Assembly: GCA_016206085.1 (NCBI GenBank) | Contig: JACQSF010000005.1 | Coordinates: 1,337-65,336, forward strand | Length of the DNA stretch: 64,000 nucleotides | Direction: 5' to 3' | Origin: Candidatus Uhrbacteria bacterium | Lineage (GTDB): Bacteria; Patescibacteriota; Patescibacteriia; UBA9934; GWF2-40-263 | Shown here: one piece after another, positions 15,852 to 52,558 of the stretch | Layout: each line of letters opens with the position of its first letter | How positions within the stretch are numbered: position 1 is the stretch's first letter | Notes under the pieces: model-generated | Databases searched by the model: none | Seen by the model: only the letters and a program-made list of their open reading frames with translations | Told to the model about the DNA's origin: nothing | Made by a program: the position numbers and the translations under genes

Positions 15852-16301
15852 TTAGCTTGGTCGACGTGTAAGGGCAAACAACGCAATCCCCGTCGCGACA
15901 GAAACATTGAGAGACTGTTTGCGACCGATCATGGGGATCTCCAGAGTCACGTCGCATTGAGCCAAAAGAGGAGCCTCAATGCCGGAGACTTCATTACCCA
16001 GGATGATCGCATTTTGTCCGATTGGACAAAATTGATCGATGCGTGTTGTCTGTGGACCATTTTCCAGGGCAAGAATTGTGCACCCTCTTAACCTTAGTTG
16101 AGCAACAAGATCGAGAACGTCTTGTGCCCGCTCCCAGGCGACTCGGTGCTCACTCCCCAGTGCCACCTTCGCAATCTCTTTGCGCGGAGGCGTGCCTGTA
16201 ATACCGGTCAAATAGAGCTTCTCCACGCCAAAGACATCACACGCCCGGAAGATCGAACCGACGTTATGGAGCGAGCGAATATTGTGCGCGATAACAATCA
16301 T
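15852..16301 (-). CDS. SpoU/TrmH-family RNA 2'-O-methyltransferase
   Basis: NIRSLHNVGSIFRACDVFG...ILGNEVSGI...IPMIGRKQSLNVSVATGIALF (SPOUT knot motifs). The start was moved to ATG 16301. Confidence 0.8.
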   Translation of the reverse strand: MIVIAHNIRSLHNVGSIFRACDVFGVEKLYLTGITGTPPRKEIAKVALGSEHRVAWERAQDVLDLVAQLRLRGCTILALENGPQTTRIDQFCPIGQNAIILGNEVSGIEAPLLAQCDVTLEIPMIGRKQSLNVSVATGIALFALTRRPS

Positions 16302-16342: not shown

Positions 16343-17470
16343 ATGTCCAGCCCCTGTCCTCAGAAGGATGTGTGCGGTTCCTGTTCCTGGTCACACATCC
16401 TATATGAGAAACAACTCAAGCAAAAACGCTCCGACATCAACGGCTCATTTGGCTTGAAAAAGCTTCCACCGTGGTGCGAGACCATCCTCCCATCCCCGGT
16501 GACCGAACATTACCGCAACCGGATGGATTTTGTGATCGACTTTGAAGGACGGGTCGGGATGCGGGAGAAGGGCAAATGGTGGAGGGTCGTTGATGGAAAC
16601 ACGTGCTTTCTCGCGGACAAGCAGATTGATGACTTGTTTGTGAAGGTTCGGGAGTGGGTGAAGCAAAGTGGTTTGTCGTACTACGATCGAAAAGCCCACA
16701 CAGGATTTCTGCGCTACGCTGTGATCCGATCGACCACGCTGGGAGAGACGATGGTCAATCTCGTGACCTCTGTTCTACCCGATGAGGAGGCAATCGATTT
16801 TGTCCGATCGGACAAAATCGTATCAGCTCCATTTCACCCAACGACCTTCATCTGGTTCCAAAACTCAACGATCACGGACGTGAGCTTCGGTGACACACTC
16901 AAAATCATCTCCGGACCTGGGTTCGTCGAGGAAGAAATCCTCGGACACCGCTACCGCATCAGCCCCAACGCCTTCTTCCAAACCAACCCCCATGGAGCAG
17001 CACTCCTCCTCCAAACGGTCGAAGAGTTTTGCGGAGATCTGTCGGGAAAAACCTTACTCGACCTCTACTGTGGTTCCGGATTTTTTTCCGTTGCACTCGC
17101 AAACCGAGCCACACGCGCAATCGGAGTAGAGATGGTTCAAGAGGCTATAGACGATGCTCGCGTAAATGCTCAACTCAACAATGTAAACGTCGAGTTCCAC
17201 GACGCAAAAACAGAAGAATTTGACTGGACCAAGCTTGGCGCAGATGTCGTGATCCTCGATCCACCGCGCAGTGGGATGCATGACAAGGCACTCGCGGACA
17301 TCCTGAAAAACCCACCCAAAGAAATCGTCTACGTCTCCTGCAACTTCAAGAATTTCGCGCGCGAAATGGTACAATTGCAAAAAGTCTACCGGGTCGACAC
17401 CATGCGGGCGATCGACATGTTCCCTCACACCCCGCATGTTGAACTTGTTACAAAACTCACCATCCGGTAG
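16343..17470 (+). CDS. RumA/TrmA-family RNA (uracil-5-)-methyltransferase
   Basis: N-terminal CGSCSW cluster motif, FFQTNP, SAM motif DLYCGSGFFSVALA, DPPRSG, VYVSCN and FPHTPHVE. Confidence 0.8.
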   Translation: MSSPCPQKDVCGSCSWSHILYEKQLKQKRSDINGSFGLKKLPPWCETILPSPVTEHYRNRMDFVIDFEGRVGMREKGKWWRVVDGNTCFLADKQIDDLFVKVREWVKQSGLSYYDRKAHTGFLRYAVIRSTTLGETMVNLVTSVLPDEEAIDFVRSDKIVSAPFHPTTFIWFQNSTITDVSFGDTLKIISGPGFVEEEILGHRYRISPNAFFQTNPHGAALLLQTVEEFCGDLSGKTLLDLYCGSGFFSVALANRATRAIGVEMVQEAIDDARVNAQLNNVNVEFHDAKTEEFDWTKLGADVVILDPPRSGMHDKALADILKNPPKEIVYVSCNFKNFAREMVQLQKVYRVDTMRAIDMFPHTPHVELVTKLTIR

Positions 17471-17518
17471 CCGCAGGCTTCAGCCTGCGCTGAACGCGGG
17501 CTAAAGCCCGCGGCTACC
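17466..17518. repeat. branched GC-rich hairpin repeat (ggtagccgc ... gcggctacc with two inner hairpins)
   Basis: The 9-bp outer stem encloses gcaggc-ttca-gcctgc and gcgggc-taaa-gcccgc. The element overlaps the stop of the upstream methyltransferase and ends 9 nt before era. A half copy lies at 44038-44060. Confidence 0.6.
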
Positions 17519-17527
17519 ACATACTCT

Positions 17528-20344: not shown

Positions 20345-21397
20345 TTAGTCGATGATGCCGCCTCCGAGAACTTTGTCCCCATCGTAGAAGACGATCGACT
20401 GACCGGGGGTAACGGCGCGTTGGGGATCCTTGAAAGTGACAACGACACGATCGATGCTAACCACCCCCAACCCCTCCTTAAAAAGGAGTGGGGTCGAAAT
20501 CGTGCAGTCCTGTAGCTCTTGGCGATAACGGATGCGAGCTTTGCACACACACGGAACCATCGGCTTCTCGAACCAGTTGAGATGCGAGGCGGTAAGTTCT
20601 GAACGGAAGAGGGCTGGGTGAAAGTTACTTGCGACGACCAGCTCATTCGTTACTGGTCGTTTCTCCACAACATAGTACGGCGTTCCGCCACCGATCCCAA
20701 GTCCTTCGCGCTGACCGAGTGTGTAAAACGCCAAACCCTCATGTGTGCCGATGACCTTTCCGTCGACCGTTACCACGTTGCCTGGATTCTTTGGAAGCCG
20801 TTCCTGCAGGAAGGTTCGCATATCTACTTCGCCGACGAAACAAATTCCCGTTGAGTCCTTCTTGTCCGCGACCTCAAGACCTAGTTCTCGCGCCTTTTCT
20901 CGTACTTGGGGCTTAGTCATTTCTCCAATGGGAAATAAGACTCGAGAGACAACGCCTGGCTTCATCGCCCATAAAAAATAACTTTGATCCTTGTTCTTGT
21001 CAGCTCCGGTATAGAGCTTTCCGTCGATGGACCGAGCGTAATGACCAGTCGCAACAAAGGCACAGCCTAAACGATCGGCCTCCTGAACGAAGCGATCAAA
21101 CTTTATGTACTTGTTGCACAAGACGTCTGGATTTGGGGTGCGTCCTGCCTCGAACTCGCGGAACATGTCGTCCACCACGGCCTCGCGATACTCTTTTTCA
21201 AAATCAAACGTCACAAACGGAATCCCAAGCTTGGCCGATACACGGGTGGCATCTCGCTGATCACGGCGCCAATCGCAGTTGGACCAATTCTTCATGAACG
21301 CACCGATCACCTCATACCCTTGTTCAATCAAAAGCGCCGCGGACACAGATGAGTCCACCCCGCCAGAGATGCCAACTAACACCTTGGGCTTGTTCAC
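20345..21397 (-). CDS. mnmA: tRNA 2-thiouridine(34) synthase MnmA
   Basis: PP-loop VGISGGVDSSVSA, CNKYIKF, ATGHYAR, DQSYFL and C-terminal TPGQSIVFYDGDKVLGGGII. Confidence 0.9.
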   Translation of the reverse strand: MNKPKVLVGISGGVDSSVSAALLIEQGYEVIGAFMKNWSNCDWRRDQRDATRVSAKLGIPFVTFDFEKEYREAVVDDMFREFEAGRTPNPDVLCNKYIKFDRFVQEADRLGCAFVATGHYARSIDGKLYTGADKNKDQSYFLWAMKPGVVSRVLFPIGEMTKPQVREKARELGLEVADKKDSTGICFVGEVDMRTFLQERLPKNPGNVVTVDGKVIGTHEGLAFYTLGQREGLGIGGGTPYYVVEKRPVTNELVVASNFHPALFRSELTASHLNWFEKPMVPCVCKARIRYRQELQDCTISTPLLFKEGLGVVSIDRVVVTFKDPQRAVTPGQSIVFYDGDKVLGGGIID

Positions 21398-21408
21398 AGA
21401 CGCACAAG

Positions 21409-22716
21409 CTACACGAGTTTAGCGAATTTGCCAACATCTTCCCGGTGCACGAAGAAATCTGTGAACTGGAGTTTCTCGTTATACTTTTGAAGAAGATCCG
21501 AGTACTGAAAGATCGGGACGAGGTCGTATCCGCTGATCTTTTTCTTTTTGACGAAAATCTTTTGGGTTTTCTCCGGCGCTTCGCCCAAGAAGGTCAATTC
21601 TTTCTTGATGGAATGTGTGAACCACTTGATCTTCGCCTTATCGCACATAGTTTTGAGCGCCTCGAGTGTGTCTCGATCTTCTGGTTTGACCACGTCGTGA
21701 AGACGCAAAATGCGTTTCGACGTCAGACGACTCATGAGATGCATGGACCAATAGTTCTCTTCACTTCGTGCCGCCGCGAACAATTGTTCGATCACGGCTC
21801 CGTCACGGAGCATTGCATAGGCATGAGGCTCTGTTGGAATCTGTAAATCGATTTCTCCTTGGATGATGGCCTGCTCGAGGTAGTGGGTGAATCCCATTTT
21901 TGTCTTGTGACAGTAGACCTGATCGATCATGTGATAACGCGCCAGTAAGAGATCCTCAAACGCGCGGACGCCATTCTCGGAAATGATGAACACGAGACCC
22001 CCATCATGTTCCTCCACCCCCATACTTGAGATGAGCCAGTCTATGTCATACTGCCCGTACGCCACGCCGCAAAAATAGCTATCGCGCAAAAGATAGTCCA
22101 TGCGGTCGCAATCAACCTCGCCGGAGATGAACCCCTTGAGAACTTTCTGCAAACTCGGGACACGAGACTCAAGCGTTGCTAGCCACGCAGAAGGACTCGC
22201 ATCAGTATGAATGAGCGAACAGATATCCTGCGCCATCTCTAATTCGAGAACTCGTTCGCTCGCAAGCGTTTGAATGAGCAAGACGCTATAGTCTTCGTGC
22301 ACGGCCTGTCGTTCTACAGACTCACCACGCCAGGCAGACCAATCGATTGGAAGATCACGGAGCTTTGGAAACACGATCTCAGAGGCGTGTGAAAATGGGC
22401 CATGACCGATATCGTGCAGGAGTCCAGCTAGTCTGACACGTTGACGAAGGCTCTCAACTTCCTCGCGTGTCAGGCGAAAAAAAACATCCGGGGCACTCTC
22501 AACCACGCGACCAAAAAGTCGACCCGCGACATGCATGGCACCAAGGGCATGGCTAAAACGGTCATGCACCGCTCCTGGGTAGACGTACGCCTGGATAAAC
22601 CCAAGCTGTGAAATAAATCTCAACCGTTGAAAAAACGGGTGGTCAATAATCCCCCGTTCAAATTCATTGAATGCAATACGCTTATGAACCGGATCGCGTA
22701 GTTCGTAATCACTCAT
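21409..22716 (-). CDS. HD-domain phosphohydrolase (dNTP triphosphohydrolase-like)
   Basis: RLRFISQLG...VHDRFSHALGAMHVA...LLHDIGHGPFSH. The start was moved to ATG 22716; the upstream 84 nt of the track ORF are a hairpin repeat. Confidence 0.8.
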   Translation of the reverse strand: MSDYELRDPVHKRIAFNEFERGIIDHPFFQRLRFISQLGFIQAYVYPGAVHDRFSHALGAMHVAGRLFGRVVESAPDVFFRLTREEVESLRQRVRLAGLLHDIGHGPFSHASEIVFPKLRDLPIDWSAWRGESVERQAVHEDYSVLLIQTLASERVLELEMAQDICSLIHTDASPSAWLATLESRVPSLQKVLKGFISGEVDCDRMDYLLRDSYFCGVAYGQYDIDWLISSMGVEEHDGGLVFIISENGVRAFEDLLLARYHMIDQVYCHKTKMGFTHYLEQAIIQGEIDLQIPTEPHAYAMLRDGAVIEQLFAAARSEENYWSMHLMSRLTSKRILRLHDVVKPEDRDTLEALKTMCDKAKIKWFTHSIKKELTFLGEAPEKTQKIFVKKKKISGYDLVPIFQYSDLLQKYNEKLQFTDFFVHREDVGKFAKLV

Positions 22717-22725
22717 AGAGGGTTG

Positions 22726-22798
22726 GGTCAGGCAATACATGAAAAAATTTCTTGCTGGCAAAGCCGGGCCAAGAAATATTTTCATGTACTGTCTGACC
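22726..22798. repeat. 73-nt hairpin element, copy B (conserved apex ttcttgctggcaaagccgggccaag)
   Basis: Basal stem ggtcaggcaatacatga / tcatgtactgtctgacc (17 positions, 2 non-Watson-Crick). The apex is identical to that of the copy at 42052-42127. The element fills the uppP-to-HD intergenic gap. Confidence 0.65.
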
Positions 22799-22802
22799 AC
22801 AA

Positions 22803-23600
22803 CTACAGTAGCAGGAGTATCGCGATACCGACAAGCACACGGAAAATGGCGAGCTCGCTGAAACTATATCTCTTGAGAAACTTCAGAAGGAACTTCACGG
22901 TAATAAACGCGCTAATCATGGCAACGATAAACCCCACAGCGAGCGGTAGCAAGGCGATGGTCTCCTCTCCGTTGACCACGCTGCCAAGTTTCAGGAATCC
23001 GGCGGCCGCAATCGTAGGGATCGAGAGGAGGAACGAGAAACGTGCGGCGGTCTCTCGAGAGAGTCCGGATGCCAGTCCCGCGGTCATGGTGATACCGGAG
23101 CGTGAGGTTCCAGGAATAATGGCAATCATTTGGGCAAATCCAATGAGGAACGCGCGCTTGAGTCCCACGCTTTGAGGACGGTCTTTTATTTCCTTCACGC
23201 GACGATCCACGAAGTAAAGCACGCTTCCCCAGACAATGAACGACCATGCGACTATTTCAACAGAACGAAATTCAATCTCAAAAACTTCCTGAAAAAGGAA
23301 ACCAACAAGAAGGACTGGGATCGTCGCAAGGGCCACCCAGGTCGCAAGTTTGCGCCAAGCCACAGAAGCTTCATCATGGGAAGGAACCAGAAGGGCACCA
23401 ATCATGGACTTCACCTCATGCCAAAGCACCGCTACAATCGCCACCAGCGTGGCGATGTGTAAGAATGCATCAAATGCGAGACTCTGAACATCCCATCCAA
23501 ACACTTCTGGAACAAGAATTAAAAAACCCGAGCTTGAGATCGGCAAAAATTCCGTGATGCCCTGGACCAGACCCAGGACAATCGCCTGTGTAACGGTCAT
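22803..23600 (-). CDS. uppP: undecaprenyl-diphosphate phosphatase
   Basis: VLGLVQGITEFLPISSSGF ... IIPGTSRSGITMTAGL. The start was moved to ATG 23600, 1 nt after the upstream stop. Confidence 0.9.
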   Translation of the reverse strand: MTVTQAIVLGLVQGITEFLPISSSGFLILVPEVFGWDVQSLAFDAFLHIATLVAIVAVLWHEVKSMIGALLVPSHDEASVAWRKLATWVALATIPVLLVGFLFQEVFEIEFRSVEIVAWSFIVWGSVLYFVDRRVKEIKDRPQSVGLKRAFLIGFAQMIAIIPGTSRSGITMTAGLASGLSRETAARFSFLLSIPTIAAAGFLKLGSVVNGEETIALLPLAVGFIVAMISAFITVKFLLKFLKRYSFSELAIFRVLVGIAILLLL

Positions 23601-23601
23601 A

Positions 23602-25635
23602 TTAATCAAATCGAATCGTTTGGCCGGTGTGAAGCGTGCCTGTTTGATTTGTTGATTCGGACGTAACTTCGGGAGCCGAAGCCAGTTTTTTCTTCTTTCG
23701 TTTTCGTTTTCTTTTTTCCAATACGGTATCTCCACCTGAATTGATTGCCCTCGGAATCGTTTTCGTTGCTATTTCTGTTTTACGACGTTCACGAATTTTT
23801 GCTAAACAGTTCTCACAATAGAGCGGCCGTGATGGATCAAGTTTTACGCCTGCTTTAAACGCCGTACCACACTGATTGCAGATGTACTCATAGGTTTCCC
23901 CCCGCATCTCTTTTTTTCGTGGACGAATTTCTGCCTGCGTCGGTGTCTTCTGTCCCTCAAACAGCACCCCAAGATTCAAAGATGGTCCGTCGAGCGCTTC
24001 TTGTGTAGGTTCGGGTTTGGATTCTGGTCTTGATCCTTCCTGTGTGTGCGGCTTGTGAAGTGCCCCAAGGCTTATGGAGGGCTCCTCTGGTAATAACCTT
24101 ATTGGTTTCTCTTCCAGTGGTCTGGAAGGAGTTTCCAGAAACCTCCCTTTTTTTCCTTTCCGTTCCTCGCGAACGATGGCGATACAATCATCGCAATAAA
24201 TCGGACGTGATCGATCCAGTTCAACCGGAAGGACGATACCTGTTGCACATCGTGAACAGGTATATTCAAACCGAGGTTTCTTACTCTCTTTGGCCATCTT
24301 TTTCTTTTCAGCAGCCTCCTGCAGAAGCTCATCAACGTCGGCGTTCTCCATCCCGCTCCATTGTAAAACTTTTTCTTCTATTTCCACACGCGGTTTGGCG
24401 TAACGTTCGCGAGAAATTTTGATGACTTTTTGTTCTGATCCAGTTTTTTGAGAAATGGGCGGCAACGTGATCGCGGAGAATGGTTGACTTGTTACACCAT
24501 CAATCAACAGTTTAAGGTAGATGTTATATTTGGGGAGGTTGATAATGTCTTCAGGCGTAAATCGGGGCATGAATTCCGTTTCCATAAACGCGGCGTCTGG
24601 TGAACCAACACGGAACGTTATAATTGTTCCCACGTTTCCAAACACCGCGTCACGCACCGGCTCGGTTAGCTGCGCGATGTACTGATGAGCCATCGTCAAA
24701 CACAGGCGATACTTCCGAGCCTCAGAAAGGATGGAGGCGAACGACTCAACGGCGAAATTTTGAAACTCGTCAACGTAGAGGTAAAAATCTTTCCTCTCAT
24801 GCTCCAGTGTATCCACGCGTTCCATCGCGGCAAGCTGCATCTTGGTAATCAATAATCCACCCAGAAGCCGCGAGTTATCTTCACCGATACGACCTTTTGA
24901 GAGGTTAATGATGAAGATTTTTTGACTATCCATAATGTCCCGAACATTGATGGAGGACTTTACTTGCGCAACAATGTTTCGAATCACAACGGCTGACAGA
25001 AACTGTCCAATCTTATTTTGAATCGGAGCAACGGCCTCCTGGGCATATTTCTCATTGTAGGAAGCAAACTCAACCAGCCAGAACTGTTTCACGACAGGGT
25101 CCTTCACGTTTCCCACGATCCGTTTGCGAAAATCCGCATCCGATAACATGCGGTTAATGCCAAGCAATGTTTGCCCTGGCGAATCCATCAGAGCCAACAG
25201 GGTGTTATTCAAAATGTATTCCATACGACTGGACCACATATTCTCCCAAATTTTTTGAAACACTCCCATCATGCCTGAAACGACGAGATGTTTATGAGAT
25301 TCACTTACCGCCTCCAGAATATTGAATCCCACAGGGAAATCCATGTCCGCCGGATTAAAATATACGACGTCGTTGAGACGCCAACTGGGAATAAAGTCAA
25401 TGAGCCTTTCGGCTGTATCTCCATGCGGATCGACGTAGCAACAACCATGTCCAGCATAAATATCCGATAACATGAAATTTTCCAATAAGACCGTTTTGCC
25501 CATGCCTGTTTTTCCAATCACATACACATGCCGACGTCGGTCGTCAGTCCTGATTCCAAACTTTGTCATCTGATTACGGAAATTTGTCTTGGCGAAGTAG
25601 GTAACTTCGGTTTCGTGTTCGTGATTGTATGACAT
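23602..25635 (-). CDS. TraD/VirD4-like (type IV coupling-protein-like) P-loop ATPase with two C-terminal CxxC-x17-CxxC zinc ribbons
   Basis: Walker A GKTGMGKT, Walker B FYLYVDEFQNF and a TMAHQYIAQL motif. There is no TM segment. The C-terminal third contains C460/C463/C481/C484 and C586/C589/C607/C610 plus a poly-Lys tract. Confidence 0.7.
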   Translation of the reverse strand: MSYNHEHETEVTYFAKTNFRNQMTKFGIRTDDRRRHVYVIGKTGMGKTVLLENFMLSDIYAGHGCCYVDPHGDTAERLIDFIPSWRLNDVVYFNPADMDFPVGFNILEAVSESHKHLVVSGMMGVFQKIWENMWSSRMEYILNNTLLALMDSPGQTLLGINRMLSDADFRKRIVGNVKDPVVKQFWLVEFASYNEKYAQEAVAPIQNKIGQFLSAVVIRNIVAQVKSSINVRDIMDSQKIFIINLSKGRIGEDNSRLLGGLLITKMQLAAMERVDTLEHERKDFYLYVDEFQNFAVESFASILSEARKYRLCLTMAHQYIAQLTEPVRDAVFGNVGTIITFRVGSPDAAFMETEFMPRFTPEDIINLPKYNIYLKLLIDGVTSQPFSAITLPPISQKTGSEQKVIKISRERYAKPRVEIEEKVLQWSGMENADVDELLQEAAEKKKMAKESKKPRFEYTCSRCATGIVLPVELDRSRPIYCDDCIAIVREERKGKKGRFLETPSRPLEEKPIRLLPEEPSISLGALHKPHTQEGSRPESKPEPTQEALDGPSLNLGVLFEGQKTPTQAEIRPRKKEMRGETYEYICNQCGTAFKAGVKLDPSRPLYCENCLAKIRERRKTEIATKTIPRAINSGGDTVLEKRKRKRKKKKLASAPEVTSESTNQTGTLHTGQTIRFD

Positions 25636-39429: not shown

Positions 39430-39565
39430 AACGTGGATGTCCCCCTTTTTAAGGGGGACTACAGGGGGTTACGAGTCTGTCGATCCGTAACCACCCCCAG
39501 CCCCCGTAAAGGGGCGTGACCCCCACGGGGCTTTACGCCCTCCTTAAAAAGGAGGGGGACCGAAA
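39430..39565. repeat. 136-nt atpD-atpC spacer composed of serial GC-rich hairpins
   Basis: Contains gtccccc...gggggac, ggttacg...cgtaacc, cccccgtaaagggg and ccctccttaaaaaggaggg. The subsegment 39491-39566 is related to 20461-20500 inside mnmA. Confidence 0.6.
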
Positions 39566-40969
<1,404 letters not shown>

Positions 40970-41135: not shown

Positions 41136-42044
41136 CTATCCTTCGAGTGCCGCTTTTCCACTGGAGATTTCCGCGATCTCTTGCGTGATGCCGGCCTGAC
41201 GAGCTTGGTTAAACGTGAATGTGAGATCGTCGATCATTTCCCCCGCCGCGTCGCTGGCGCTTCTCATAGCCATCATACGAGCAGAGTGTTCTGAGGCGGC
41301 GGATTCCAGCACCGCCTGGTAGACCATCGTCTCGACGAGCCGCGGAAGAATCCGATCAAGGACCTCGCGCGGACTGGGCTCAAACGTGTAGGCACTTGCT
41401 TTTGTGAACTTCATGTCCACGTGCCCAGCTTGTTGTGCTTGACCAACGCTCTTTACTGTTTCGACGGACAATGGGAGGAAGTCGAGAATGACGGGCATCT
41501 GGCTGACTGCACTGACAAAATCCGTATAGGCAAGCACGACCTTGTCAAACGACCCCTTGGTATATTCATCGACGATCATGCGACCAATGGGCAAAACTTC
41601 CTCAAATTTCGTGTTGTTGGTAATCTCCAAAAAACTTGCCAGGACGGGAACTTTCAGACGTTTGAGTGCGTCAGCTCCGCGTTTACCAATACACACAGCG
41701 TTGACTTGCACACTATCCCCCAAGGTTTTGATTGCCTCACGCGTGCGCCGAAGAACATTCGTGTTGAACCCACCGGCAAGGCCTCGATCGGATGTAATGA
41801 GCAAGAGGAGTACGGATGTTGTTTCACGATGGCGGTGCAGGAGCGGATGAAGGCTCGTGTCGGTAAGGTGACCAATCGATTGAATCGTGTTCCACGCAAG
41901 CTTCGCATATGGCCGCGATGCCAATACCGCGCTCACGGCTTTGCGCATTTTGCTGGCCGCAACCAGCTCCATGGCTTTGGTGATCTTGCGGGTATTCTTG
42001 ACGGACTTGATCCGACGTTTAATGGCTCTGGTTTGAACGGCCAT
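41136..42044 (-). CDS. atpG: F-type ATP synthase subunit gamma
   Basis: IKRRIKSVKNTRKITKAMELVAASKMRKA and the C-terminal ITQEIAEISSGKAALE. Confidence 0.92.
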   Translation of the reverse strand: MAVQTRAIKRRIKSVKNTRKITKAMELVAASKMRKAVSAVLASRPYAKLAWNTIQSIGHLTDTSLHPLLHRHRETTSVLLLLITSDRGLAGGFNTNVLRRTREAIKTLGDSVQVNAVCIGKRGADALKRLKVPVLASFLEITNNTKFEEVLPIGRMIVDEYTKGSFDKVVLAYTDFVSAVSQMPVILDFLPLSVETVKSVGQAQQAGHVDMKFTKASAYTFEPSPREVLDRILPRLVETMVYQAVLESAASEHSARMMAMRSASDAAGEMIDDLTFTFNQARQAGITQEIAEISSGKAALEG

Positions 42045-42051
42045 AGACCTG

Positions 42052-42127
42052 GGTCAGGTAGTGCAGAGGAAAAAATTCTTGCTGGCAAAGCCGGGCCAAG
42101 TAATTTTTTTCTCTGCACTACCTGACC
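42052..42127. repeat. 76-nt hairpin element, copy A (conserved apex ttcttgctggcaaagccgggccaag)
   Basis: A perfect 17-bp basal stem, ggtcaggtagtgcagag / ctctgcactacctgacc, plus an A/T-rich middle stem. The element fills the atpA-atpG gap (6 nt from the stop, 7 nt from the start). Confidence 0.65.
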
Positions 42128-42133
42128 TCAACA

Positions 42134-43636
42134 TCAATTAAAAGTCTGATTAAAATCTTCGATAAGCTTCTTGAGGCCAGCTTCGATTTCGTCTGTGATC
42201 GTTTTTTCAGTCTTCAACGCATTCATCACTTCAACTCCTGATGAGAGCAGATACTGCTGGAATGCTTCCTCCCAATCAACGATCTTCTCAACTGGAATCT
42301 GATCGATAAGTCCGTTGATCGCCGCAAACAACACGGCGACCTGCGCTTCAAATGGAAGTGGATGATATTGTGGCTGCTTCAACAGTTCTGTAAGCCGTCG
42401 TCCACGCTCGATCTGCTGTCGTGTACCGGCATCGAGGTCAGTAGCAAACTGGGCGAACGCTTCAAGCTCACGAAACTGGGCAAGCTCCAGTCGCAATTTC
42501 CCCGCCACCTTTTTCATCGCCTTGGTTTGCGCGGCTGATCCCACTCGGGAAACAGAAAGTCCCACGTTGAGCGCTGGGCGAATACCACGGTAGAACAAGT
42601 CCGTTTCAAGATAGATCTGTCCGTCGGTGATGGAAATGACGTTGGTTGGGATATACGCAGACACATCGCCAGCCTGCGTTTCAATAATTGGGAGCGCCGT
42701 CAACGATCCCCCACCGTTCTCTTCGTTGAGTCGCGCGGCGCGTTCGAGCAAACGGGAGTGCAAGTAAAACACGTCCCCTGGATAGGCTTCACGGCCTGGA
42801 GGTCGACGAAGCAACAGAGAAATTTCTCGATACGCCCAGGCTTGTTTTGAGAGATCGTCATAAATGACGAGCGCATCTTCGCCCTTTGCCATAAAGTATT
42901 CTCCGATAGTGCAACCGGTGAACGGAGCGATATACGAAAGCGCCGCCGGATCTGAAGCACCAGCCACGACCACGGTCGTGTACTCCATCGCTCCGGTTTC
43001 TTCTAGCCGCGCAACGATTTTTGCAATCTTGGATTCCTTTTGTCCAATGGCCACGTAAATGCATTTCACGTTCTGACCTTTTTGGTTGATGATCGTGTCA
43101 ACGGCAATGGCGGTCTTCCCGGTTTGTCGGTCACCAATGATAAGTTCACGTTGACCACGCCCAATAGGAATCATCGAGTCGACAGCCTTGATGCCTGTCT
43201 GAAGCGGAACCCCTACAGATTTACGTGTCATCACGCCTGGAGCAATTTTCTCGATTGGATAAAACGTTTTTGCCGCAAGCTTACCTTTTCCGTCCACCGG
43301 GTTTCCCAATGGATCGATCACTCGTCCAAGAACCTCGTCTGAAATAGGCACGGACAAAATACGACCCGTTGTCTTTACCGTATCTCCCTCTTTGATTTTA
43401 GAAGCTTCTCCCAGCACAACGGCTCCCACACCGTCCTCTTCAAGGTTAAGAGCCACACCAAAGACGCCGCCCGGGAACTCAAGCATCTCAGAAGCTTTGG
43501 CTCCTGAAAGCCCGCTCATACGTGCCGTGCCATCTCCCACAGATAAAACAGTTCCAACTTCTTCTTGTTTCGCTTCCGTATGAAAGTTTTGGAGCGCCCC
43601 CCTAAGCGCCTCAATAATATCCGTTTTTGTTGTCAT
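42134..43636 (-). CDS. atpA: F-type ATP synthase subunit alpha
   Basis: [63 protein letters not shown]. Confidence 0.97.
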
Positions 43637-44028: not shown

Positions 44029-44042
44029 ATACAGAACGCAGG

Positions 44043-44615
44043 CTAAAGCCTGCGGCTACCACTCATATCATCGACAACCGCCTCTGCCAGTTTGGTGGCC
44101 TTTTTTTCATCAACTCCATCCTCAAGGATCTTGCGAGCCGCTTCAACCGCAATCGCCGCGATCTCTTCACGAGCGTCGCGGATCATCTGCTCTTTCTGTG
44201 CTTCAAGTTGAACTTTCCCTTGAGCGACGACTCCTTTTACTTCCTCCTTCGCCTTCGCAAGCAGTTCCTTCTTTCGATCCTCGGATGCGCTACGGGCTTC
44301 CTCCAGAATCTTGGTCGCTTCTGACTTTGCCGTAGCGATCACCTCTTTGTGTTCAGTCTCGAGCTCGCGGACTCGTTTTTCTACGTCATCTGCTTGCTTC
44401 ACGCTGCGCTCTATTTTTTCCTGACGCTCTTCCAAGAGTTTTACGATCGGCTTGTAGACCCATTTCCAGAGCACAAATAGCACAACCGCAAAATTAAGAA
44501 ACTGAGCAAGAAAAATCTTGAGGTTAATTCCAAGCGTTCCCAATCCACCACTGGCTTCCGTGGAGGAGACGACTTCCTGTGCCGCTTGTGCGACTTGTTG
44601 AACTTCTGAAGACAT
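44043..44615 (-). CDS. atpF: F-type ATP synthase subunit b
   Basis: One N-terminal TM helix (FLAQFLNFAVVLFVLWKWVY) and then a long charged helix. The last codons and the stop are supplied by the hairpin repeat at 44038-44060. Confidence 0.8.
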   Translation of the reverse strand: MSSEVQQVAQAAQEVVSSTEASGGLGTLGINLKIFLAQFLNFAVVLFVLWKWVYKPIVKLLEERQEKIERSVKQADDVEKRVRELETEHKEVIATAKSEATKILEEARSASEDRKKELLAKAKEEVKGVVAQGKVQLEAQKEQMIRDAREEIAAIAVEAARKILEDGVDEKKATKLAEAVVDDMSGSRRL

Positions 44616-44685: not shown

Positions 44686-45007
<322 letters not shown>

Positions 45008-45832
45008 TCACGCGTGAGCTGGCTGGTGTTCTCCTTCCTCGTGTCCATGATCTTGTGTCGCCACCGTCAGATACGCAAGAGTCAACATCGCAAACACCGT
45101 AGCTTGAATGGCTCCAACCAAAACTTCCAAAAACAGAAACGGGATCGGCAGAACGTACGCAAAGATTCCAAGCATGACGGTCAAGAGAACTTCTCCGGCA
45201 AAAATATTCCCAAACAATCGTAACGACAAGGAAAGGACTTTGGCAATTTCGGAAATAATTTCGATCAGACCAACAGCGAACTCAATGAACGCCACAAGAA
45301 TAGCCATGGGACCCTTATTGATTGAACGAAAAATCCCTCGAACGTTTACGAATTTGCTTAGATGAGAGACGGGACCCAATGTGATCAAACCAACGATATG
45401 TGAACTTATGACCACAAACAAAGCCATGGCGAGTGTGAGATTGAGATCACTCGCGGCCGGTCTCAACAACGGAATAAGCTCAAGCTGTCCTTCGTGCAAG
45501 CCCCAGACACCGATAGATCCTGTTCCAGGCAACAATCCAAGCCAGTTGGAAAATAGAATAAAGAGAAAGATCGAACCAACAATGGGAAGAAACTGTTTCG
45601 CCCGTTTAAGATCACCCGTGACCTTTTGGACTTCGCCAAGCATGAACTCGACTGTGGCCTCAATGAGGTTGTGAACACCCAAAGGAACAAGACCCCGACG
45701 TCGATTTGCCACAAACGCAACAATAAGGAAAAAAAACACGGCAATCCAGCCGTTGATTATCGCATTGGTAATTGGAAAACTTCCAATGTGGAAGAGGGGT
45801 TCGGCTGCCGCTGGTGGGATGAGCAATTCCAT
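45008..45832 (-). CDS. atpB: F-type ATP synthase subunit a
   Basis: LSLSLRLFGNIFAGEVLL (essential Arg motif) and 5-6 TM segments. Confidence 0.9.
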   Translation of the reverse strand: MELLIPPAAAEPLFHIGSFPITNAIINGWIAVFFFLIVAFVANRRRGLVPLGVHNLIEATVEFMLGEVQKVTGDLKRAKQFLPIVGSIFLFILFSNWLGLLPGTGSIGVWGLHEGQLELIPLLRPAASDLNLTLAMALFVVISSHIVGLITLGPVSHLSKFVNVRGIFRSINKGPMAILVAFIEFAVGLIEIISEIAKVLSLSLRLFGNIFAGEVLLTVMLGIFAYVLPIPFLFLEVLVGAIQATVFAMLTLAYLTVATQDHGHEEGEHQPAHA

Positions 45833-49488: not shown

Positions 49489-49546
49489 GACAAGATTAGA
49501 CCTGTTGCCAAATAATTTTATGCCTGTTGATTCACCTCTGAAACCA

Positions 49547-49582
49547 ACGATCAATTATGTCCGATCGGACATAATTGATCGT
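49547..49582. repeat. perfect 36-nt palindrome acgatcaattatgtccgatcggacataattgatcgt
   Basis: Read directly from the sequence. It contains three GATC sites. Confidence 0.75.
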
Positions 49583-49654
49583 GCCCACAAATTGGTTAGG
49601 CACAAAATGATAAATCTTTCCTACAAAAAATCGACCATCGCTGGTCGATTCCCT

Positions 49655-49688
49655 ACGATCAATTTTGTCCGGTCGGACAATTTAGATC
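49655..49688. repeat. degenerate second copy of the 36-nt palindrome, overlapping the tatD stop codon
   Basis: In acgatcaattttgtccggtcggacaatttagatc, the left half differs from copy 1 at one position and the right half has diverged. Centre-to-centre distance from copy 1 is about 108 bp. Confidence 0.55.
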
Positions 49689-51100: not shown

Positions 51101-52558
51101 TTAGGTGGAAAGGGGGGAAGGTGGGAAGGAAGCAGTCAAATCGCGTCGAGGGAACAAGGACTCTCCAACGAGAATAACTTTATCATAGCGACGGAGGATT
51201 TCTGAACTTGTCTGTGGAAGAACCGGCGCGAGTGCACGACCAATCCAACGGATCTGCTGTGAGATCATCGACAATACCTGCTTGGCCGCTGCTTCGTCTT
51301 GTTTCACAAGTTTAAACGGTTCTTTTTTGTCGACTTCCTCGTTTGCCTCGTCCACTACAGCAAAAACTTCATCGAGGTAAACCTTGAAGTCGTACTGAGC
51401 AATAGCCTCGTCGAGCGTTTTTTGTCGACCCGACCAGTCAATGTCAACTTCATCGAGCTTCCCCTCAAAATACTTCACACTCATGGCCGCCACGCGACTC
51501 ACCAAATTCCCCAAACGGTTGGCAAGCTCGGCATAGCGTTCCTCCATCCGCTCACGCGAAAAATCGCCGTCGTCATGGGAGGGAATTTCTCGAAGGAGAT
51601 AATAACGCAGCGCGTCCGTCCCGTACTCTTTCACTTCGTCAAACGGATCCACCACGTTTCCAAGACTCTTGCTCATCTTCTGTCCGCCTGAGGTGATAAA
51701 GCCATGAATGAAAATCTGCTTGCTTGGCGCAACACCTGCAGACATCAACATCGCCTGCCACATCGCTGATTGTTGGCGCAGGTTATCTTTTCCCGCAACT
51801 TGCACACCTGGCCAGAACCTGAACGCACCACTCTCATCGGGCCAGCCCAGGGTTGAAATGTAGTTCACGAGCGCATCAAACCAAACATACATGACCTGCA
51901 TTTCATCGCCTGGTACCGGCACGCCCCAGGGCATCTTGGATGCGATGCGCGAGATACTAAAGTCTTTCAGCCCGCCCTCCACGAATGTCTTAATCTCACG
52001 CAGACGATTCTCTGGTACGACAAAGTCGGGATGCTTCTCGTAAAGGTCTAGCAGTGGCTGCTGGTAGTTTGAAAATTTGAAGAAGTAATTCTCTTCATCG
52101 ACGAGCTGAAGTTCGAGATTTGGATGCACAGGACATCGGTTATCGACGAGCTCGGAGTCGGTCTTCTCCAGCTCACAGCCCACGCAGTACTTCACTTGGT
52201 AACGCGCTTTGTAAATATCCCCTCGCGCCTCACAGCGTTTCCAAAATTCTTGCGCGGCCGCCTCATGCTTGGGATCACTCGTCTGAATGAAATTCGTGTA
52301 CGAAAGATTCAGCGTATCCTTGAGTGCATCAAACTTCGCCGCATATTCATCGACGTACGCCTTGGGCTCCTTCCCTTCCTCGAGTGCCTTCTCGTAAATT
52401 TTTTGCCCATGCTCATCTGTACCGGTATTGAAAATAACTTCCTCTCCGCGCAGCCGATGATATCGCGCCAATGCGTCGGCCTGCACAATCTCAAGCGCAA
52501 ACCCAATGTGGGGTTTCGCGTTTACGTACGGAAGGGTCGTGGTGATGTAATACTTCAT
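51101..52558 (-). CDS. metG: methionine--tRNA ligase (short form)
   Basis: YYITTTLPYVNAKPHIGFA (HIGH), zinc knuckle CVGCE...CPVH, and KMSKSLGN. The C-terminal 9 residues and the stop are encoded by the repeat at 51104-51129. Confidence 0.92.
   Translation of the reverse strand: MKYYITTTLPYVNAKPHIGFALEIVQADALARYHRLRGEEVIFNTGTDEHGQKIYEKALEEGKEPKAYVDEYAAKFDALKDTLNLSYTNFIQTSDPKHEAAAQEFWKRCEARGDIYKARYQVKYCVGCELEKTDSELVDNRCPVHPNLELQLVDEENYFFKFSNYQQPLLDLYEKHPDFVVPENRLREIKTFVEGGLKDFSISRIASKMPWGVPVPGDEMQVMYVWFDALVNYISTLGWPDESGAFRFWPGVQVAGKDNLRQQSAMWQAMLMSAGVAPSKQIFIHGFITSGGQKMSKSLGNVVDPFDEVKEYGTDALRYYLLREIPSHDDGDFSRERMEERYAELANRLGNLVSRVAAMSVKYFEGKLDEVDIDWSGRQKTLDEAIAQYDFKVYLDEVFAVVDEANEEVDKKEPFKLVKQDEAAAKQVLSMISQQIRWIGRALAPVLPQTSSEILRRYDKVILVGESLFPRRDLTASFPPSPLST

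What the first reader, a model, noticed from the sequence alone, without database searches (positions are those of the whole stretch)
42052..42127. Two-copy hairpin element with an identical apical sequence and different basal stems, each exactly filling a stop-to-start gap
Copy A (42052-42127, between atpA and atpG) and copy B (22726-22798, between uppP and the HD hydrolase) share an identical central 25-mer, ttcttgctggcaaagccgggccaag.

Their 17-bp basal stems begin with the same ggtcagg/cctgacc, but the inner 10 positions differ. In A the stem is ggtcaggtagtgcagag/ctctgcactacctgacc and pairs perfectly. In B it is ggtcaggcaatacatga/tcatgtactgtctgacc, with one wobble and one mismatch. Pairing is thus maintained while the sequence changes, which is the signature of selection on structure.

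In both cases the element lies 4-6 nt after the upstream stop and 7-9 nt before the downstream ATG of co-directional minus-strand genes. In both cases no Shine-Dalgarno sequence is visible in the short remaining gap.

Candidate roles are an RNA processing or stability element, a translational coupling or regulatory hairpin, a protein-binding site, or a small palindromic mobile element (REP/MITE-like) that targets gene junctions.
Basis: seen in the sequence. Interest (0 to 1): 0.6.

Follow-up and report, generated by a model that had tools for sequence, protein, structure and literature searches.

The report
REPIN-like hairpin repeat of Uhrbacteria
The two hairpins belong to an undescribed family of small palindromic DNA repeats in Candidatus Uhrbacteria; their ends match the inverted repeats around a RAYT-type transposase gene in related genomes, and their 15-base tip has stayed unchanged while neutral sites were randomised.

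Summary
Copy A (42052-42127) and copy B (22726-22798) share an exact 25-mer and fold into about 30-bp hairpins.

They are not a private pair. Pattern scans, protein-guided look-ups and a covariance model found 42 intact hairpins, counting these two. They occupy about 11 genomic sites in Ca. Uhrbacteria genome and metagenome contigs.

- **Tip.** The 15-nt tip CTGGCAAAGCCGGGC is exact in 41 of 42 intact hairpins, although third codon positions in flanking genes are only 36-76% identical.
- **Arms.** The arms vary freely but stay 96% Watson-Crick paired; 26 of 30 pairs show double-sided changes.
- **No G.U excess.** On the mRNA strand there are 8 G.U against 17 A.C.
- **Orientation.** Both orientations occur at three orthologous junctions.
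- **Occupancy.** Presence is patchy among close relatives.
- **Coding copies.** Copies sit in frame inside a glycosyltransferase gene.

Together these argue against a junction-specific RNA regulator.

The ends (GGGGTCAGGT / ACCTGACCCC) match the perfect 28-29-bp inverted repeats bracketing a conserved Y1/HUH transposase. That protein scores just under NCBIfam's RAYT cut-off. It was found in two related contigs, one of which also carries a hairpin.

Best reading: a REPIN/MITE-like non-autonomous partner of that transposase, inherited vertically, with its tip under nucleotide-level selection for an unknown binding partner. This is a new variant of a known kind and moderately interesting.

The parts
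42052..42127 (+). Copy A of the type-1 hairpin element. The tip reads CTGGCAAAGCCGGGC on the + strand, which is antisense to the flanking atp genes.
   Evidence: I5; 79.3 bits, E 1.6e-14.
22726..22798 (+). Copy B of the type-1 hairpin element, in the same orientation as A and antisense to uppP and the HD gene.
   Evidence: I4; 78 bits, E 3.1e-14.
42082..42096 (+). Invariant 15-nt tip of copy A, CTGGCAAAGCCGGGC. It can form a 5-bp mini-helix with an AAA triloop and a 2-nt GC bulge.
   Evidence: exact in 41 of 42 intact hairpins. Searches give the fold.
22755..22769 (+). Invariant 15-nt tip of copy B.
42052..42060 (+). Left foot of A, GGTCAGGTA, preceded by CTG. It matches the foot CTGGGGTCAGGTC of the inverted repeats that bracket the RAYT-like gene in L015 and L053.
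42119..42127 (+). Right foot of A, TACCTGACC.
22726..22733 (+). Left foot of B, GGTCAGGC.
22791..22798 (+). Right foot of B, GTCTGACC.
42134..43636 (-). atpA (F1 alpha), the gene upstream of copy A.
   Evidence: ATP-synt_ab, E 2.9e-83.
41136..42044 (-). atpG (F1 gamma), the gene downstream of copy A.
   Evidence: PF00231, E 3e-92; 100% identical to a Ca. Uhrbacteria protein.
22803..23735 (-). uppP/bacA, the gene upstream of copy B.
   Evidence: BacA, E 1.1e-73.
21409..22716 (-). HD-domain protein, the gene downstream of copy B (ATG at 22716).
   Evidence: HD, HD_assoc_2. for the start codon.

Best explanation
A and B are two copies of a 61-83-bp palindromic, non-coding DNA element family specific to a clade of Candidatus Uhrbacteria; I call it the type-1 hairpin.

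**Anatomy (shown).**
- Each copy has a moderately conserved foot, (G)GGTCAGGT...ACCTGACC(C).
- The arms are free in sequence but stay Watson-Crick complementary.
- An A/T-rich upper stem ends in TTTCTTG/CAA.
- The asymmetric 15-nt tip is invariant.

**Link to a transposase (shown).** The foot is the same as the outer part of the perfect 28-29-bp inverted repeats that bracket a conserved Y1/HUH transposase of the RAYT type in related Uhrbacteria. That protein has its catalytic motifs intact and carries an extra HTH-like C-terminal half. Other small hairpins with the same foot but different interiors also exist (types 2 and 3).

**Mechanism (inferred).** The hairpins are non-autonomous REPIN/MITE-like substrates of that transposase. 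As single-stranded DNA either strand folds into the hairpin. The enzyme recognises and cuts at the foot and re-inserts the element without a target duplication.

**History (shown).**
- The copies now seen are old and were inherited vertically.
- Copies are lost or decay at individual sites.
- Some copies are flipped between relatives at the same site.

**How pairing is kept (inferred).** The arms stay complementary by compensatory change or by arm-to-arm templated correction at the DNA level.

**The tip (shown and inferred).** The tip stays unchanged in intergenic-sense, intergenic-antisense and protein-coding contexts although neutral sites are near saturation. It is therefore under nucleotide-level purifying selection while the hairpin is intact. 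I infer that it is the docking site of a sequence-specific protein, either the transposase's HTH half or a host factor. That protein would act on the extruded DNA hairpin or on the duplex.

**Effect on mRNA (inferred).** In the atp and uppP mRNAs the element is a passenger that forms a very stable hairpin. That may affect processing or decay, but it is not what maintains the element.
For: **A real, widespread family.**
- 13 genome and 19 metagenome loci carry the tip inside a hairpin. The 8 chance hits have no hairpin, and L027 has a truncated copy.
- Copies found independently of the search pattern also have the tip:
  - L006a, L013a, L042, L050 and L051 carry it exactly;
  - L035b has one substitution.

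**Covariation.**
- 92.9% of cells are paired, against 74.9% in shuffles and 36-51% with slid partners.
- 26 of 30 pairs have double-sided changes, giving 162 compensatory cells; 0 of 500 shuffles reach this.

**DNA-like rather than RNA-like pairing.**
- The stems hold 1061 Watson-Crick pairs, 8 G.U and 17 A.C on the mRNA strand, and 15 other mismatches.
- Tip orientation is 23 sense to 14 antisense.
- Both orientations occur at the uppP-HD, atpA-atpG and J4 junctions.
- Orientation is not tied to GC skew beyond gene strand.

**Context independence.**
- One copy forms 23 in-frame codons of a GT2 gene in L005.
- The motif FLAGKAGP is present in homologs of 75-84% identity and absent from more distant ones.
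- Their DNA keeps the exact tip with different, complementary arms.

**Age and inheritance.**
- Third codon positions are 36-76% identical between carriers.
- The nearest-neighbour arm is at the same junction for 14 of 34 elements and in the same genome for none.

**Decay.** Copies that lost an arm have mutated tips (L017 8633-8690, L019 6017-6075, L027).

**Transposase link.**
- The L015 ORF 6532-7371 matches Y1_Tnp at 38.9 bits (cut-off 23) and NF047646 'REP-associated tyrosine transposase' at 79.1 bits (cut-off 80).
- Its HUH motif and catalytic Tyr are invariant in 12 homologs down to 50% identity.
- It is bracketed by CTGGGGTCAGGTC...-type inverted repeats in L015 (29 nt, 93%) and L053 (28 nt, 100%). 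Their inner parts differ but remain complementary.
- L015 carries a type-1 hairpin 6.4 kb away.
- Hairpins with the same foot and other interiors are in L018, L027 and L052. Solo feet lie next to the elements in L009 and L012.

**No target duplication.** None was found. From general knowledge, this fits Y1 transposition.
Against: - No transposase lies in the 64-kb window. Whether this genome encodes one is unknown.
- The foot shared with the transposase repeats is only 8-11 nt and is degenerate in many type-1 copies.
- The invariant tip is absent from the transposase cassettes, so the link says nothing direct about the tip.
- There is no sign of recent transposition: no two copies within one genome are alike.
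- Few copies were detected, 1 to 5 per MAG and 2 in the 64-kb window. Classical REPIN populations number tens to hundreds.
- The canonical REP signature, a 5' GTAG followed by a short imperfect hairpin at each end, is not present.
- The NCBIfam score falls just under the curated cut-off.
- Most copies were found with a pattern that requires the tip. The unbiased sample for tip conservation is therefore small: six intact hairpins and three decayed copies.
Confidence: 0.6

Rival explanations
1. The element is an RNA-level cis-regulatory hairpin. Each copy would be selected at its own junction as an RNase III or exonuclease-barrier processing site, or as a device that couples or throttles translation of the downstream gene. 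One example would be setting alpha:gamma stoichiometry in the atp operon.
For: - The hairpins sit inside co-directional gene pairs and would be transcribed.
- The RNA folds are extremely stable.
- The stems are long enough for RNase III (general knowledge; Correia elements are cut by RNase III, PMC10969869).
- Covariation is strong.
- Start codons lie 1-12 nt after the stem in many copies.
Against: - The tip is found in both orientations at three orthologous junctions, and the antisense copies are just as conserved.
- G.U pairs are not enriched over A.C on the mRNA strand, 8 against 17.
- The atpA-atpG junction lacks the element in L045, L046, L052, L043, L044, L048 and L049, and holds an unrelated element in L041.
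- The same element with the same tip is kept inside a coding sequence.
- The flanking genes share no function.
- There is no terminator-like T-tract or promoter and no Rfam family.
- Lack of an SD sequence is the norm in this lineage.
Confidence: 0.1
2. The element is a host DNA site unrelated to any transposase. The palindrome would extrude as a cruciform, or fold on single-stranded DNA, to present the 15-25-nt tip to a chromosomal protein concerned with replication, repair, nucleoid structure or DNA processing. The foot shared with the transposase repeats would be coincidental or secondary.
For: - The tip is conserved independently of orientation and context.
- The A/T-rich upper stem would ease extrusion (sequence).
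- The tip mutates once the palindrome is broken.
- The copies detected are few and lie at fixed sites rather than in bursts.
Against: - No candidate protein was identified.
- Site occupancy is patchy among close relatives, which is odd for a needed chromosomal site.
- In-frame insertion into a gene and tandem clusters with decayed copies look like mobile DNA.
- The foot is shared with other hairpin types and with the transposase cassette ends.
Confidence: 0.15
3. The copies are neutral relics. They would be dead insertions whose arms stay complementary only through intrapalindrome template switching or gene conversion, with no selection on any part.
For: - The pairing is purely Watson-Crick, with no wobble bias.
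- Flips occur at orthologous sites, and inversion of Correia elements is reported (PMC10969869).
- Copies decay and are lost frequently.
- No recent transposition is seen.
Against: - Arm-to-arm correction cannot protect an unpaired, asymmetric tip.
- The tip is exact in five of six intact hairpins found independently of the search pattern. Flanking third codon positions are only 36-76% identical.
- All synonymous positions of the tip are unchanged in three coding copies.
- Small genomes with 2-30-nt spacers would be expected to delete 75 nt of junk (inference).
Confidence: 0.08

Closest known systems
REPIN-RAYT systems: REP doublets forming hairpins, mobilised by REP-associated tyrosine transposases (Bertels & Rainey 2011, PMC3116915; Bertels et al. 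2017, PMC5581495)
   Same: - Short palindromic elements form a long hairpin in ssDNA or mRNA.
- Compensatory changes between the two sides are common (PMC3116915).
- The associated Y1/HUH transposase has the element's ends on both sides of its gene.
- Inheritance is vertical and persistence is long (PMC5581495).
- Singlets, inverted doublets and clusters with decayed members all occur.
   Different: - In REPINs the ends (the REP 16-mers) are the most conserved part and the spacer is free. Here the tip is invariant and the ends are only moderately conserved.
- There is no 5' GTAG-plus-hairpin REP unit.
- Few copies were detected per genome, not tens to hundreds.
- The transposase is about 280 aa with an extra HTH-like half, and it is flanked by plain 28-29-bp inverted repeats.
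- The host is a Patescibacteria (CPR) lineage. My literature searches found no report of such repeats there.
Rickettsia palindromic elements (RPE)
   Same: Palindromic repeats occur both between genes and in frame inside protein-coding genes, adding a peptide segment without destroying the ORF (PMC10969869). Here that is the 23-codon insertion in a GT2 gene.
   Different: - RPEs are about 100-150 bp, come in several families and often lie inside genes. Here only one of about 11 sites is coding.
- There is no sequence relationship.
- No transposase is known for RPEs (my knowledge).
Correia (CREE/NEMIS) and ERIC elements
   Same: - They are small inverted-repeat elements co-transcribed with neighbouring genes.
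- They can be found inverted at the same locus.
- Some carry a protein-binding site in the middle, such as the IHF site in Correia.
- They form RNase III or RNase E substrates in mRNA (PMC10969869).
   Different: - Correia elements have conserved 26-bp terminal repeats, a TA target duplication and internal promoters.
- None of these was found here.
- Here the arms vary and the centre is invariant.
IS200/IS605-family ends and their non-autonomous derivatives (PATEs)
   Same: - The transposase superfamily is the same (Y1_Tnp).
- Hairpins are recognised as single-stranded DNA.
- No target duplication is made (general knowledge).
- An extra-helical base in the stem is seen in 10 of 39 copies, always on the 3' side of the tip-forward strand.
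   Different: - IS200/IS605 elements have different left and right subterminal hairpins, not one palindrome spanning the whole element.
- Their orientation is tied to the replication strand, which is not seen here.

Membership tests
REPIN / REP-RAYT system | A cognate RAYT (Y1/HUH transposase) whose gene is flanked by the repeat | tested here: met
   - In L015 and L053/L054 the gene matches Y1_Tnp at 38.9 bits (cut-off 23).
- It matches NF047646 at 79.1 bits (cut-off 80).
- The HUH motif and the catalytic Tyr are invariant.
- The gene is bracketed by 28-29-bp inverted repeats that begin CTGGGGTCAGGTC, the foot of the hairpins.
- Caveat: this was seen in related contigs, one of which carries a type-1 hairpin, and not in the window itself.
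REPIN / REP-RAYT system | The REP unit: a conserved 5' GTAG followed by a short imperfect palindrome, with two inverted REPs making a REPIN | tested here: not met
   No conserved GTAG is present: the position reads GTAC in most copies and GTAG in A only. The feet are not themselves hairpins.
REPIN / REP-RAYT system | Conserved ends and a variable spacer with compensatory changes | tested here: inconclusive
   The arms covary strongly and the feet are moderately conserved. However, the most conserved part is the central tip, which is the reverse of REPINs.
REPIN / REP-RAYT system | Many copies per genome (tens to hundreds), over-represented in extragenic space | tested here: inconclusive
   There are 2 copies in 64 kb and 1-5 detected per incomplete MAG. 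No complete genome was available.
REPIN / REP-RAYT system | Mobilisation by the RAYT | not testable with these tools
   This needs biochemistry or population sequencing.
MITE (miniature inverted-repeat transposable element) | Terminal inverted repeats shared with an autonomous element | tested here: met
   The whole element is an inverted repeat. Its foot is shared with the repeats of the transposase cassette, and that cassette sits in two different gene contexts.
MITE (miniature inverted-repeat transposable element) | Target-site duplication flanking the element | tested here: not met
   No consistent direct repeat flanks the 39 copies.
Rickettsia palindromic elements | In-frame insertion into protein-coding genes | tested here: met
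   L005 5457-5525 lies within the GT2 ORF 4882-5991. The same insertion is in L050 and L051, and distant homologs lack it. This applies to one site only.
Rickettsia palindromic elements | Sequence or size relationship to RPE families | not tested
   No RPE sequences were compared. The sizes differ: 61-83 bp here against about 100-150 bp.
Intrinsic (Rho-independent) terminator | A GC-rich stem followed directly by a T-tract | tested here: not met
   No terminator-like sites were found around either copy. The T-runs lie inside the stem.
Any curated RNA family (Rfam 15) | A match at the gathering score | tested here: not met
   The window has no hits at gathering threshold. At E up to 10 only generic miRNA-precursor hairpin models match, far below their thresholds.
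Integron attC site | Conserved R''/R' boxes (RYYYAAC / GTTRRRY) at the base, flanking promoterless cassettes | tested here: not met
   The bases are GGTCAGG/CCTGACC. The neighbours are core housekeeping genes in conserved operons.

The most novel reading that the evidence does not exclude
The type-1 hairpin may be a domesticated REPIN. Its invariant asymmetric tip, presented on an extruded DNA hairpin, would be the specific docking site for the HTH half of the single-copy Uhrbacteria RAYT-like protein or for another host protein. The pair would perform a host function at a small number of fixed chromosomal sites. That would explain why individual copies are held unchanged across species whose neutral sites are saturated. 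It would be direct sequence evidence for the long-suspected host benefit of REPIN-RAYT systems, and it would come from a minimal-genome CPR lineage.
Probability: 0.25. Interest if true: 0.75.

Novelty: new variant of a known kind. Interest (0 to 1): 0.55.

Why it matters
REPIN-RAYT systems are argued to be vertically inherited and possibly beneficial passengers of bacterial genomes, but what maintains them is unresolved (PMC5581495).

This family offers an unusually clean case.

- It has few copies at orthologous sites in many species.
- The arms are free to vary as long as they pair.
- The 15-nt tip is frozen in every context, including inside a protein-coding gene.

That separates the part kept by pairing from the part kept by sequence. 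It also gives a concrete oligonucleotide and a concrete protein to test against each other.

The case also extends this kind of element to the Patescibacteria, whose very small genomes are usually thought to carry little repetitive DNA.

There is a practical lesson for genome scanning as well. Strong covariation in a hairpin between genes does not by itself indicate a structured regulatory RNA. The G.U against A.C census, the orientation at orthologous sites and the occupancy in relatives are cheap discriminators.

Tried and rejected
- **Known RNA family.** Rfam gave nothing at gathering threshold and only generic miRNA-hairpin noise at E up to 10.
- **Terminator or promoter.** No T-tract terminator and no sigma-70-like promoter lie in or at the elements.
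- **Phage or plasmid origin.** The tip pattern is absent from IMG/VR. blastn against phage and plasmid collections gave only one 23-nt chance hit.
- **Target-site duplications.** None were found.
- **More degenerate copies in the window.** The covariance model with filters off found only generic palindromes beyond A and B.
- **Transposase or recombinase in the window.** About 50 ORFs were scanned with Pfam and all were housekeeping or unknown. tblastn with the RAYT-like protein was negative.
- **Orientation tied to replication.** GC skew simply follows gene strand, and the antisense copies lie on the C-rich strand.
- **Hypermutable arms.** Rejected. Arm identity between orthologs is 0.53-0.88, and third-codon-position identity is 0.34-0.76.
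- **Recent spread within genomes.** Rejected. No element has its nearest neighbour in the same genome.
- **Split Shine-Dalgarno bridged by the hairpin.** I considered this because GAGG abuts the 5' foot of A. I dropped it because the lineage does not use SD sequences.
- **Integron attC, loxP-like recombinase core sites and DNA uptake sequences.** Considered and rejected on anatomy and copy number.
- **Literature.** Searches for such repeats in Uhrbacteria or Patescibacteria found nothing relevant.
- **Solved structure.** No PDB relative of the RAYT-like protein was found by sequence.
Full report
**1. The observation**

The 25-mer TTCTTGCTGGCAAAGCCGGGCCAAG occurs exactly twice, at 42076-42100 and 22749-22773 on the + strand. 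None is expected by chance.

Each copy lies at the centre of a long inverted repeat (I4 and I5).
- As RNA, the spacers fold on either strand at -40 to -54.5 kcal/mol, z about -9.
- As DNA, the elements fold at -22 to -31 kcal/mol.
- The helix is longer than the 17 bp described. It continues through an A/T-rich segment up to CTTG/CAAG, giving about 29-30 pairs.

Pfam confirms the flanking genes as atpA, atpG, uppP (BacA) and an HD-domain protein.

The distances to the stop and start codons are 6 and 7 nt for A, and 4 and 9 nt for B.

AtpG is 100% identical to a protein of a Candidatus Uhrbacteria MAG, which places the window.

**2. A family, not a pair**

- An exact-pattern scan of one genome per species found 13 more copies in five Patescibacteria/Uhrbacteria MAGs.
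- A slightly relaxed pattern found 27 metagenome loci. Nineteen carry the motif inside the same kind of hairpin, one (L027) holds a truncated copy, and eight are chance matches with no hairpin.
- A palindrome scan, protein-guided look-ups and a covariance model added copies that the patterns could not have found: L006a, L013a, L035b, L042, L050 and L051.
- The total is 42 intact hairpins of 61-83 bp.
- The window holds only the two copies (covariance model, filters off).
- Nothing similar exists in viral contigs, phages or plasmids, nor in Rfam.
- I found no paper describing such repeats in this lineage.

**3. Anatomy**

- **Tip.** CTGGCAAAGCCGGGC is exact in 41 of 42 intact hairpins. L035b has one substitution.
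- **Closing pairs.** CTTG/CAAG covaries to CTTA/TAAG in six copies (pair 39-55).
- **5' conservation.** On the 5' side it extends further, through TTTCTTG. The base opposite the C is often mismatched, or an extra base is present there. This irregularity is always on the 3' side of the tip-forward strand, in 10 of 39 copies.
- **Upper stem.** It is A/T-rich.
- **Middle of the arms.** It is free in sequence.
- **Foot.** It tends to (G)GGTCAGGT / ACCTGACC(C).
- **Covariation (37 distinct copies).**
  - 92.9% of cells are paired, against 74.9% in shuffles and 36-51% with slid partners.
  - 26 of 30 pairs show changes on both sides.
  - There are 162 compensatory cells, and none of 500 shuffles reaches this.

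**4. Where the copies sit and how old they are**

The copies occupy about 11 sites. Most are short gaps between co-directional genes. Many sites are orthologous across genomes:
- after a regulator-like gene ending ...FDALWKMM (9 carriers, often as an inverted doublet);
- uppP to the HD gene;
- atpA to atpG;
- pheS to pheT;
- several others.

Between carriers, third codon positions of the flanking genes are only 36-76% identical, so neutral sites are close to saturation. Arms of orthologous copies are 53-88% identical.

The nearest-neighbour arm lies at the same junction for 14 of 34 elements and in the same genome for none. The copies are therefore old and vertically inherited, and there has been no recent burst.

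Occupancy is nevertheless patchy. At the atpA-atpG junction:

| State of the junction | Loci (AtpG identity to the window) |
|---|---|
| Element present, tip antisense | window; L042 (84%) |
| Element present, tip sense | L021 (74%); L022 (88%) |
| Unrelated GC-rich hairpin element | L041 (about 90%) |
| No element, gap at most 46 nt (genes overlap in L048) | L045 (91%); L052 (90%); L046 (about 89%); L043 (77%); L048 (75%); L044 (73%); L049 (73%) |

Decayed copies lie next to intact ones, and their tips carry substitutions (L017 8633-8690, L019 6017-6075, and a truncated copy in L027).

**5. Is it an RNA element?**

Five observations say no.

1. **Orientation.** The tip is sense in 23 copies and antisense in 14. 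Both orientations occur at three orthologous junctions (uppP-HD, atpA-atpG and J4). The antisense copies, which include both copies in this window, are as well conserved as the sense ones.
2. **Pair types.** The stems hold 1061 Watson-Crick pairs but only 8 G.U on the mRNA strand, against 17 A.C and 15 other mismatches. A helix selected in RNA should tolerate G.U and not A.C.
3. **A coding copy.** In L005 the element forms 23 in-frame codons (TAWVPETFLAGKAGPRNVSGTHA) of a family-2 glycosyltransferase.
   - Homologs of 75-84% identity carry the same FLAGKAGP insertion, and more distant ones lack about 20 residues there.
   - The DNA of two of these homologs keeps the exact 15-nt tip, including every synonymous position, with different but complementary arms.
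4. **Shine-Dalgarno.** A missing SD sequence is normal for this lineage: 12 of 113 genes have one, against a 13.9% background.
5. **Signals.** There is no T-tract terminator or promoter.

Tip orientation also does not follow GC skew beyond gene strand. This fits recognition of a duplex or a cruciform, in which both strands' loops are present. It also fits an element that either strand can present.

**6. The transposase link**

The 8-mer of the foot is enriched in the held loci outside the annotated hairpins. Following those hits gave three things.

- **Other hairpin types.** Some hairpins have the same foot, TGGGGTCAGGTC, but different interiors: type 2 in L018 and L027, and type 3 in L052 upstream of atpF.
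- **Solo feet.** These lie beside the type-1 elements in L009 and L012.
- **A transposase cassette.** In L015, a contig that also carries a type-1 hairpin 6.4 kb away, a 1-kb segment is bounded by inverted repeats beginning CTGGGGTCAGGTC. It encodes a 279-aa protein.
  - The protein matches Pfam Y1_Tnp at 38.9 bits (cut-off 23).
  - It matches NCBIfam 'REP-associated tyrosine transposase' at 79.1 bits, just under the cut-off of 80, with E 3e-22.
  - More than 100 homologs of about 280 aa were listed. Every organism name attached to them is Uhrbacteria or Patescibacteria, and several are annotated RayT by JGI.
  - The HUH motif and the catalytic tyrosine are invariant down to 50% identity, and an HTH-like C-terminal half is conserved.

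A second locus (L053/L054, 75% identical protein) lies in a different gene context. There the gene is bracketed by a perfect 28-bp inverted repeat with the same 13-nt foot. The inner part of the repeat differs but is complementary. Both cassettes also fill a stop-to-start gap.

A transposase gene flanked by the ends of a dispersed hairpin repeat is the defining arrangement of REP/REPIN-RAYT systems (PMC3116915, PMC5581495). Compensatory changes across the hairpin are a reported REPIN feature. The absence of target duplications fits Y1 transposition, from general knowledge.

**7. Best explanation and its limits**

The hairpins are most likely non-autonomous REPIN/MITE-like partners of this RAYT-type enzyme. 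They would have inserted long ago, been inherited vertically, occasionally flipped, and been lost or decayed.

- **What is shown:** the family, its anatomy, DNA-style pairing, conservation of the tip independent of context, the shared foot, and the intact transposase in related genomes.
- **What is inferred:** that the enzyme moves the hairpins; that arm complementarity is kept by compensatory change or arm-to-arm templated correction; and that the tip is a protein docking site.

The tip is the part no simple model explains. It is unpaired and asymmetric, so it cannot be corrected from the other arm. It is absent from the transposase cassettes. Yet it is unchanged in old copies. This calls for purifying selection on each intact copy, by a factor still to be identified.

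The weak points are these:
- no transposase lies in the window itself;
- the shared foot is short and degenerate;
- few copies were detected;
- the canonical GTAG-REP unit is absent;
- the sample of copies ascertained without reference to the tip is small.

**8. Verdict**

The RNA-regulatory options and the 'no SD' argument are not supported.

Relative to known systems this is a new variant of the REPIN-RAYT kind in a CPR lineage. It has an inverted conservation pattern, with a frozen centre and free arms, and an in-frame coding copy reminiscent of Rickettsia palindromic elements. Interest is moderate. It would be higher if the tip proves to be a domesticated binding site.

Noticed in passing
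L015 6501-7559; L053 3955-4871 (also L054): A RAYT-type Y1/HUH transposase gene of about 280 aa has a conserved HTH-like C-terminal half. It is bracketed by 28-29-bp inverted repeats starting CTGGGGTCAGGTC. The two cassettes sit in different gene contexts, rpoD downstream in L015 and clpB-like downstream in L053, so the cassette itself seems to have moved.
   Followed up: yes
L005 5457-5525 (GT2 ORF 4882-5991, minus strand); L050 3232-3304; L051 10465-10537: The hairpin element is inserted in frame in a family-2 glycosyltransferase, adding 23 residues that contain FLAGKAGP in a variable loop. It is kept in at least four species with the exact tip and covarying arms. Other homologs have an unrelated insert of similar length at the same place.
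   Followed up: yes
L018 6333-6392; L027 249-309; L052 about 74-135: Other small hairpins share the foot TGGGGTCAGGTC / GACCTGACCCCA but have different interiors. Type 2 has arms CGGGACAYGGGACTT with a compensatory change between the two copies. Type 3 has arms TGGCTATTGGCTATTT and lies upstream of atpF. Solo feet lie next to type-1 elements in L009 (about 2190) and L012 (about 3873).
   Followed up: partly
window 17465-17521 and 44034-44062; L034 2631-2719; L041 9900-9975: A second, GC-rich repeat family looks more like a classical REP. GGTAGCC ... GGCTACC encloses short hairpins such as GCAGGC-TTCA-GCCTGC and GCGGGC-TAAA-GCCCGC. In the window it fills the gap between the tRNA methyltransferase and era genes, and it overlaps the atpF-atpH junction. 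A related element occupies the atpA-atpG spacer of L041.
   Followed up: partly
window 16001-16037, 16787-16823, 49544-49580, 49652-49688: There are four copies of a 21-bp perfect or near-perfect palindrome, TTTTGTCCGATCGGACAAAAT, arranged in two pairs 786 and 108 nt apart. It looks like an operator for a dimeric regulator.
   Followed up: no
window 44930-45008; L033 4213-4277: Upstream of atpB lies a 35-nt-arm palindrome built from heptamer-like repeats (AGTGGTT/TAGTGGT... against ACTCAAT...). It is conserved at the corresponding place in a related contig and may be a control region of the atp operon.
   Followed up: no
window 20472-20500 and 39538-39566; L030 7629-7659: A repeated hairpin, CCCCTCCTT-AAA-AAGGAGGGG, pairs an SD-like sequence with its complement. 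One copy lies just after atpD. The other lies inside the mnmA reading frame as called here.
   Followed up: no
window 4701-4750 and 51104-51129; L046 5268-5296: Short tandem 8-nt repeats of the GGTGGGAAGG type occur in the window. Their complement, CCACCTCCC repeats, fills the 29-nt atpA-atpG spacer of L046.
   Followed up: no
window 23602-25635 (minus strand): A 677-aa protein has type IV coupling-protein-like domains (TrwB_AAD_bind, TraG-D_C) and a C-terminal zinc ribbon. Its ORF abuts, and as called overlaps by about 130 nt, the start of uppP next to copy B. No relaxase or other transfer genes were seen in the window.
   Followed up: no
L041, L042, L044, L045, L049, L050, L051 (113 called gene starts): Shine-Dalgarno cores (GGAG or GAGG at -20..-4) are no more frequent than in random sequence, 10.6% against 13.9%. 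This Uhrbacteria clade therefore appears to initiate translation largely without an SD sequence.
   Followed up: partly
L007, L008, L011, L012 (CAZELN01 contigs): The MAG titled 'uncultured Gammaproteobacteria bacterium binchicken_co368_97' shares orthologous junctions and elements with the Uhrbacteria MAGs. Its taxonomic label is probably wrong.
   Followed up: no
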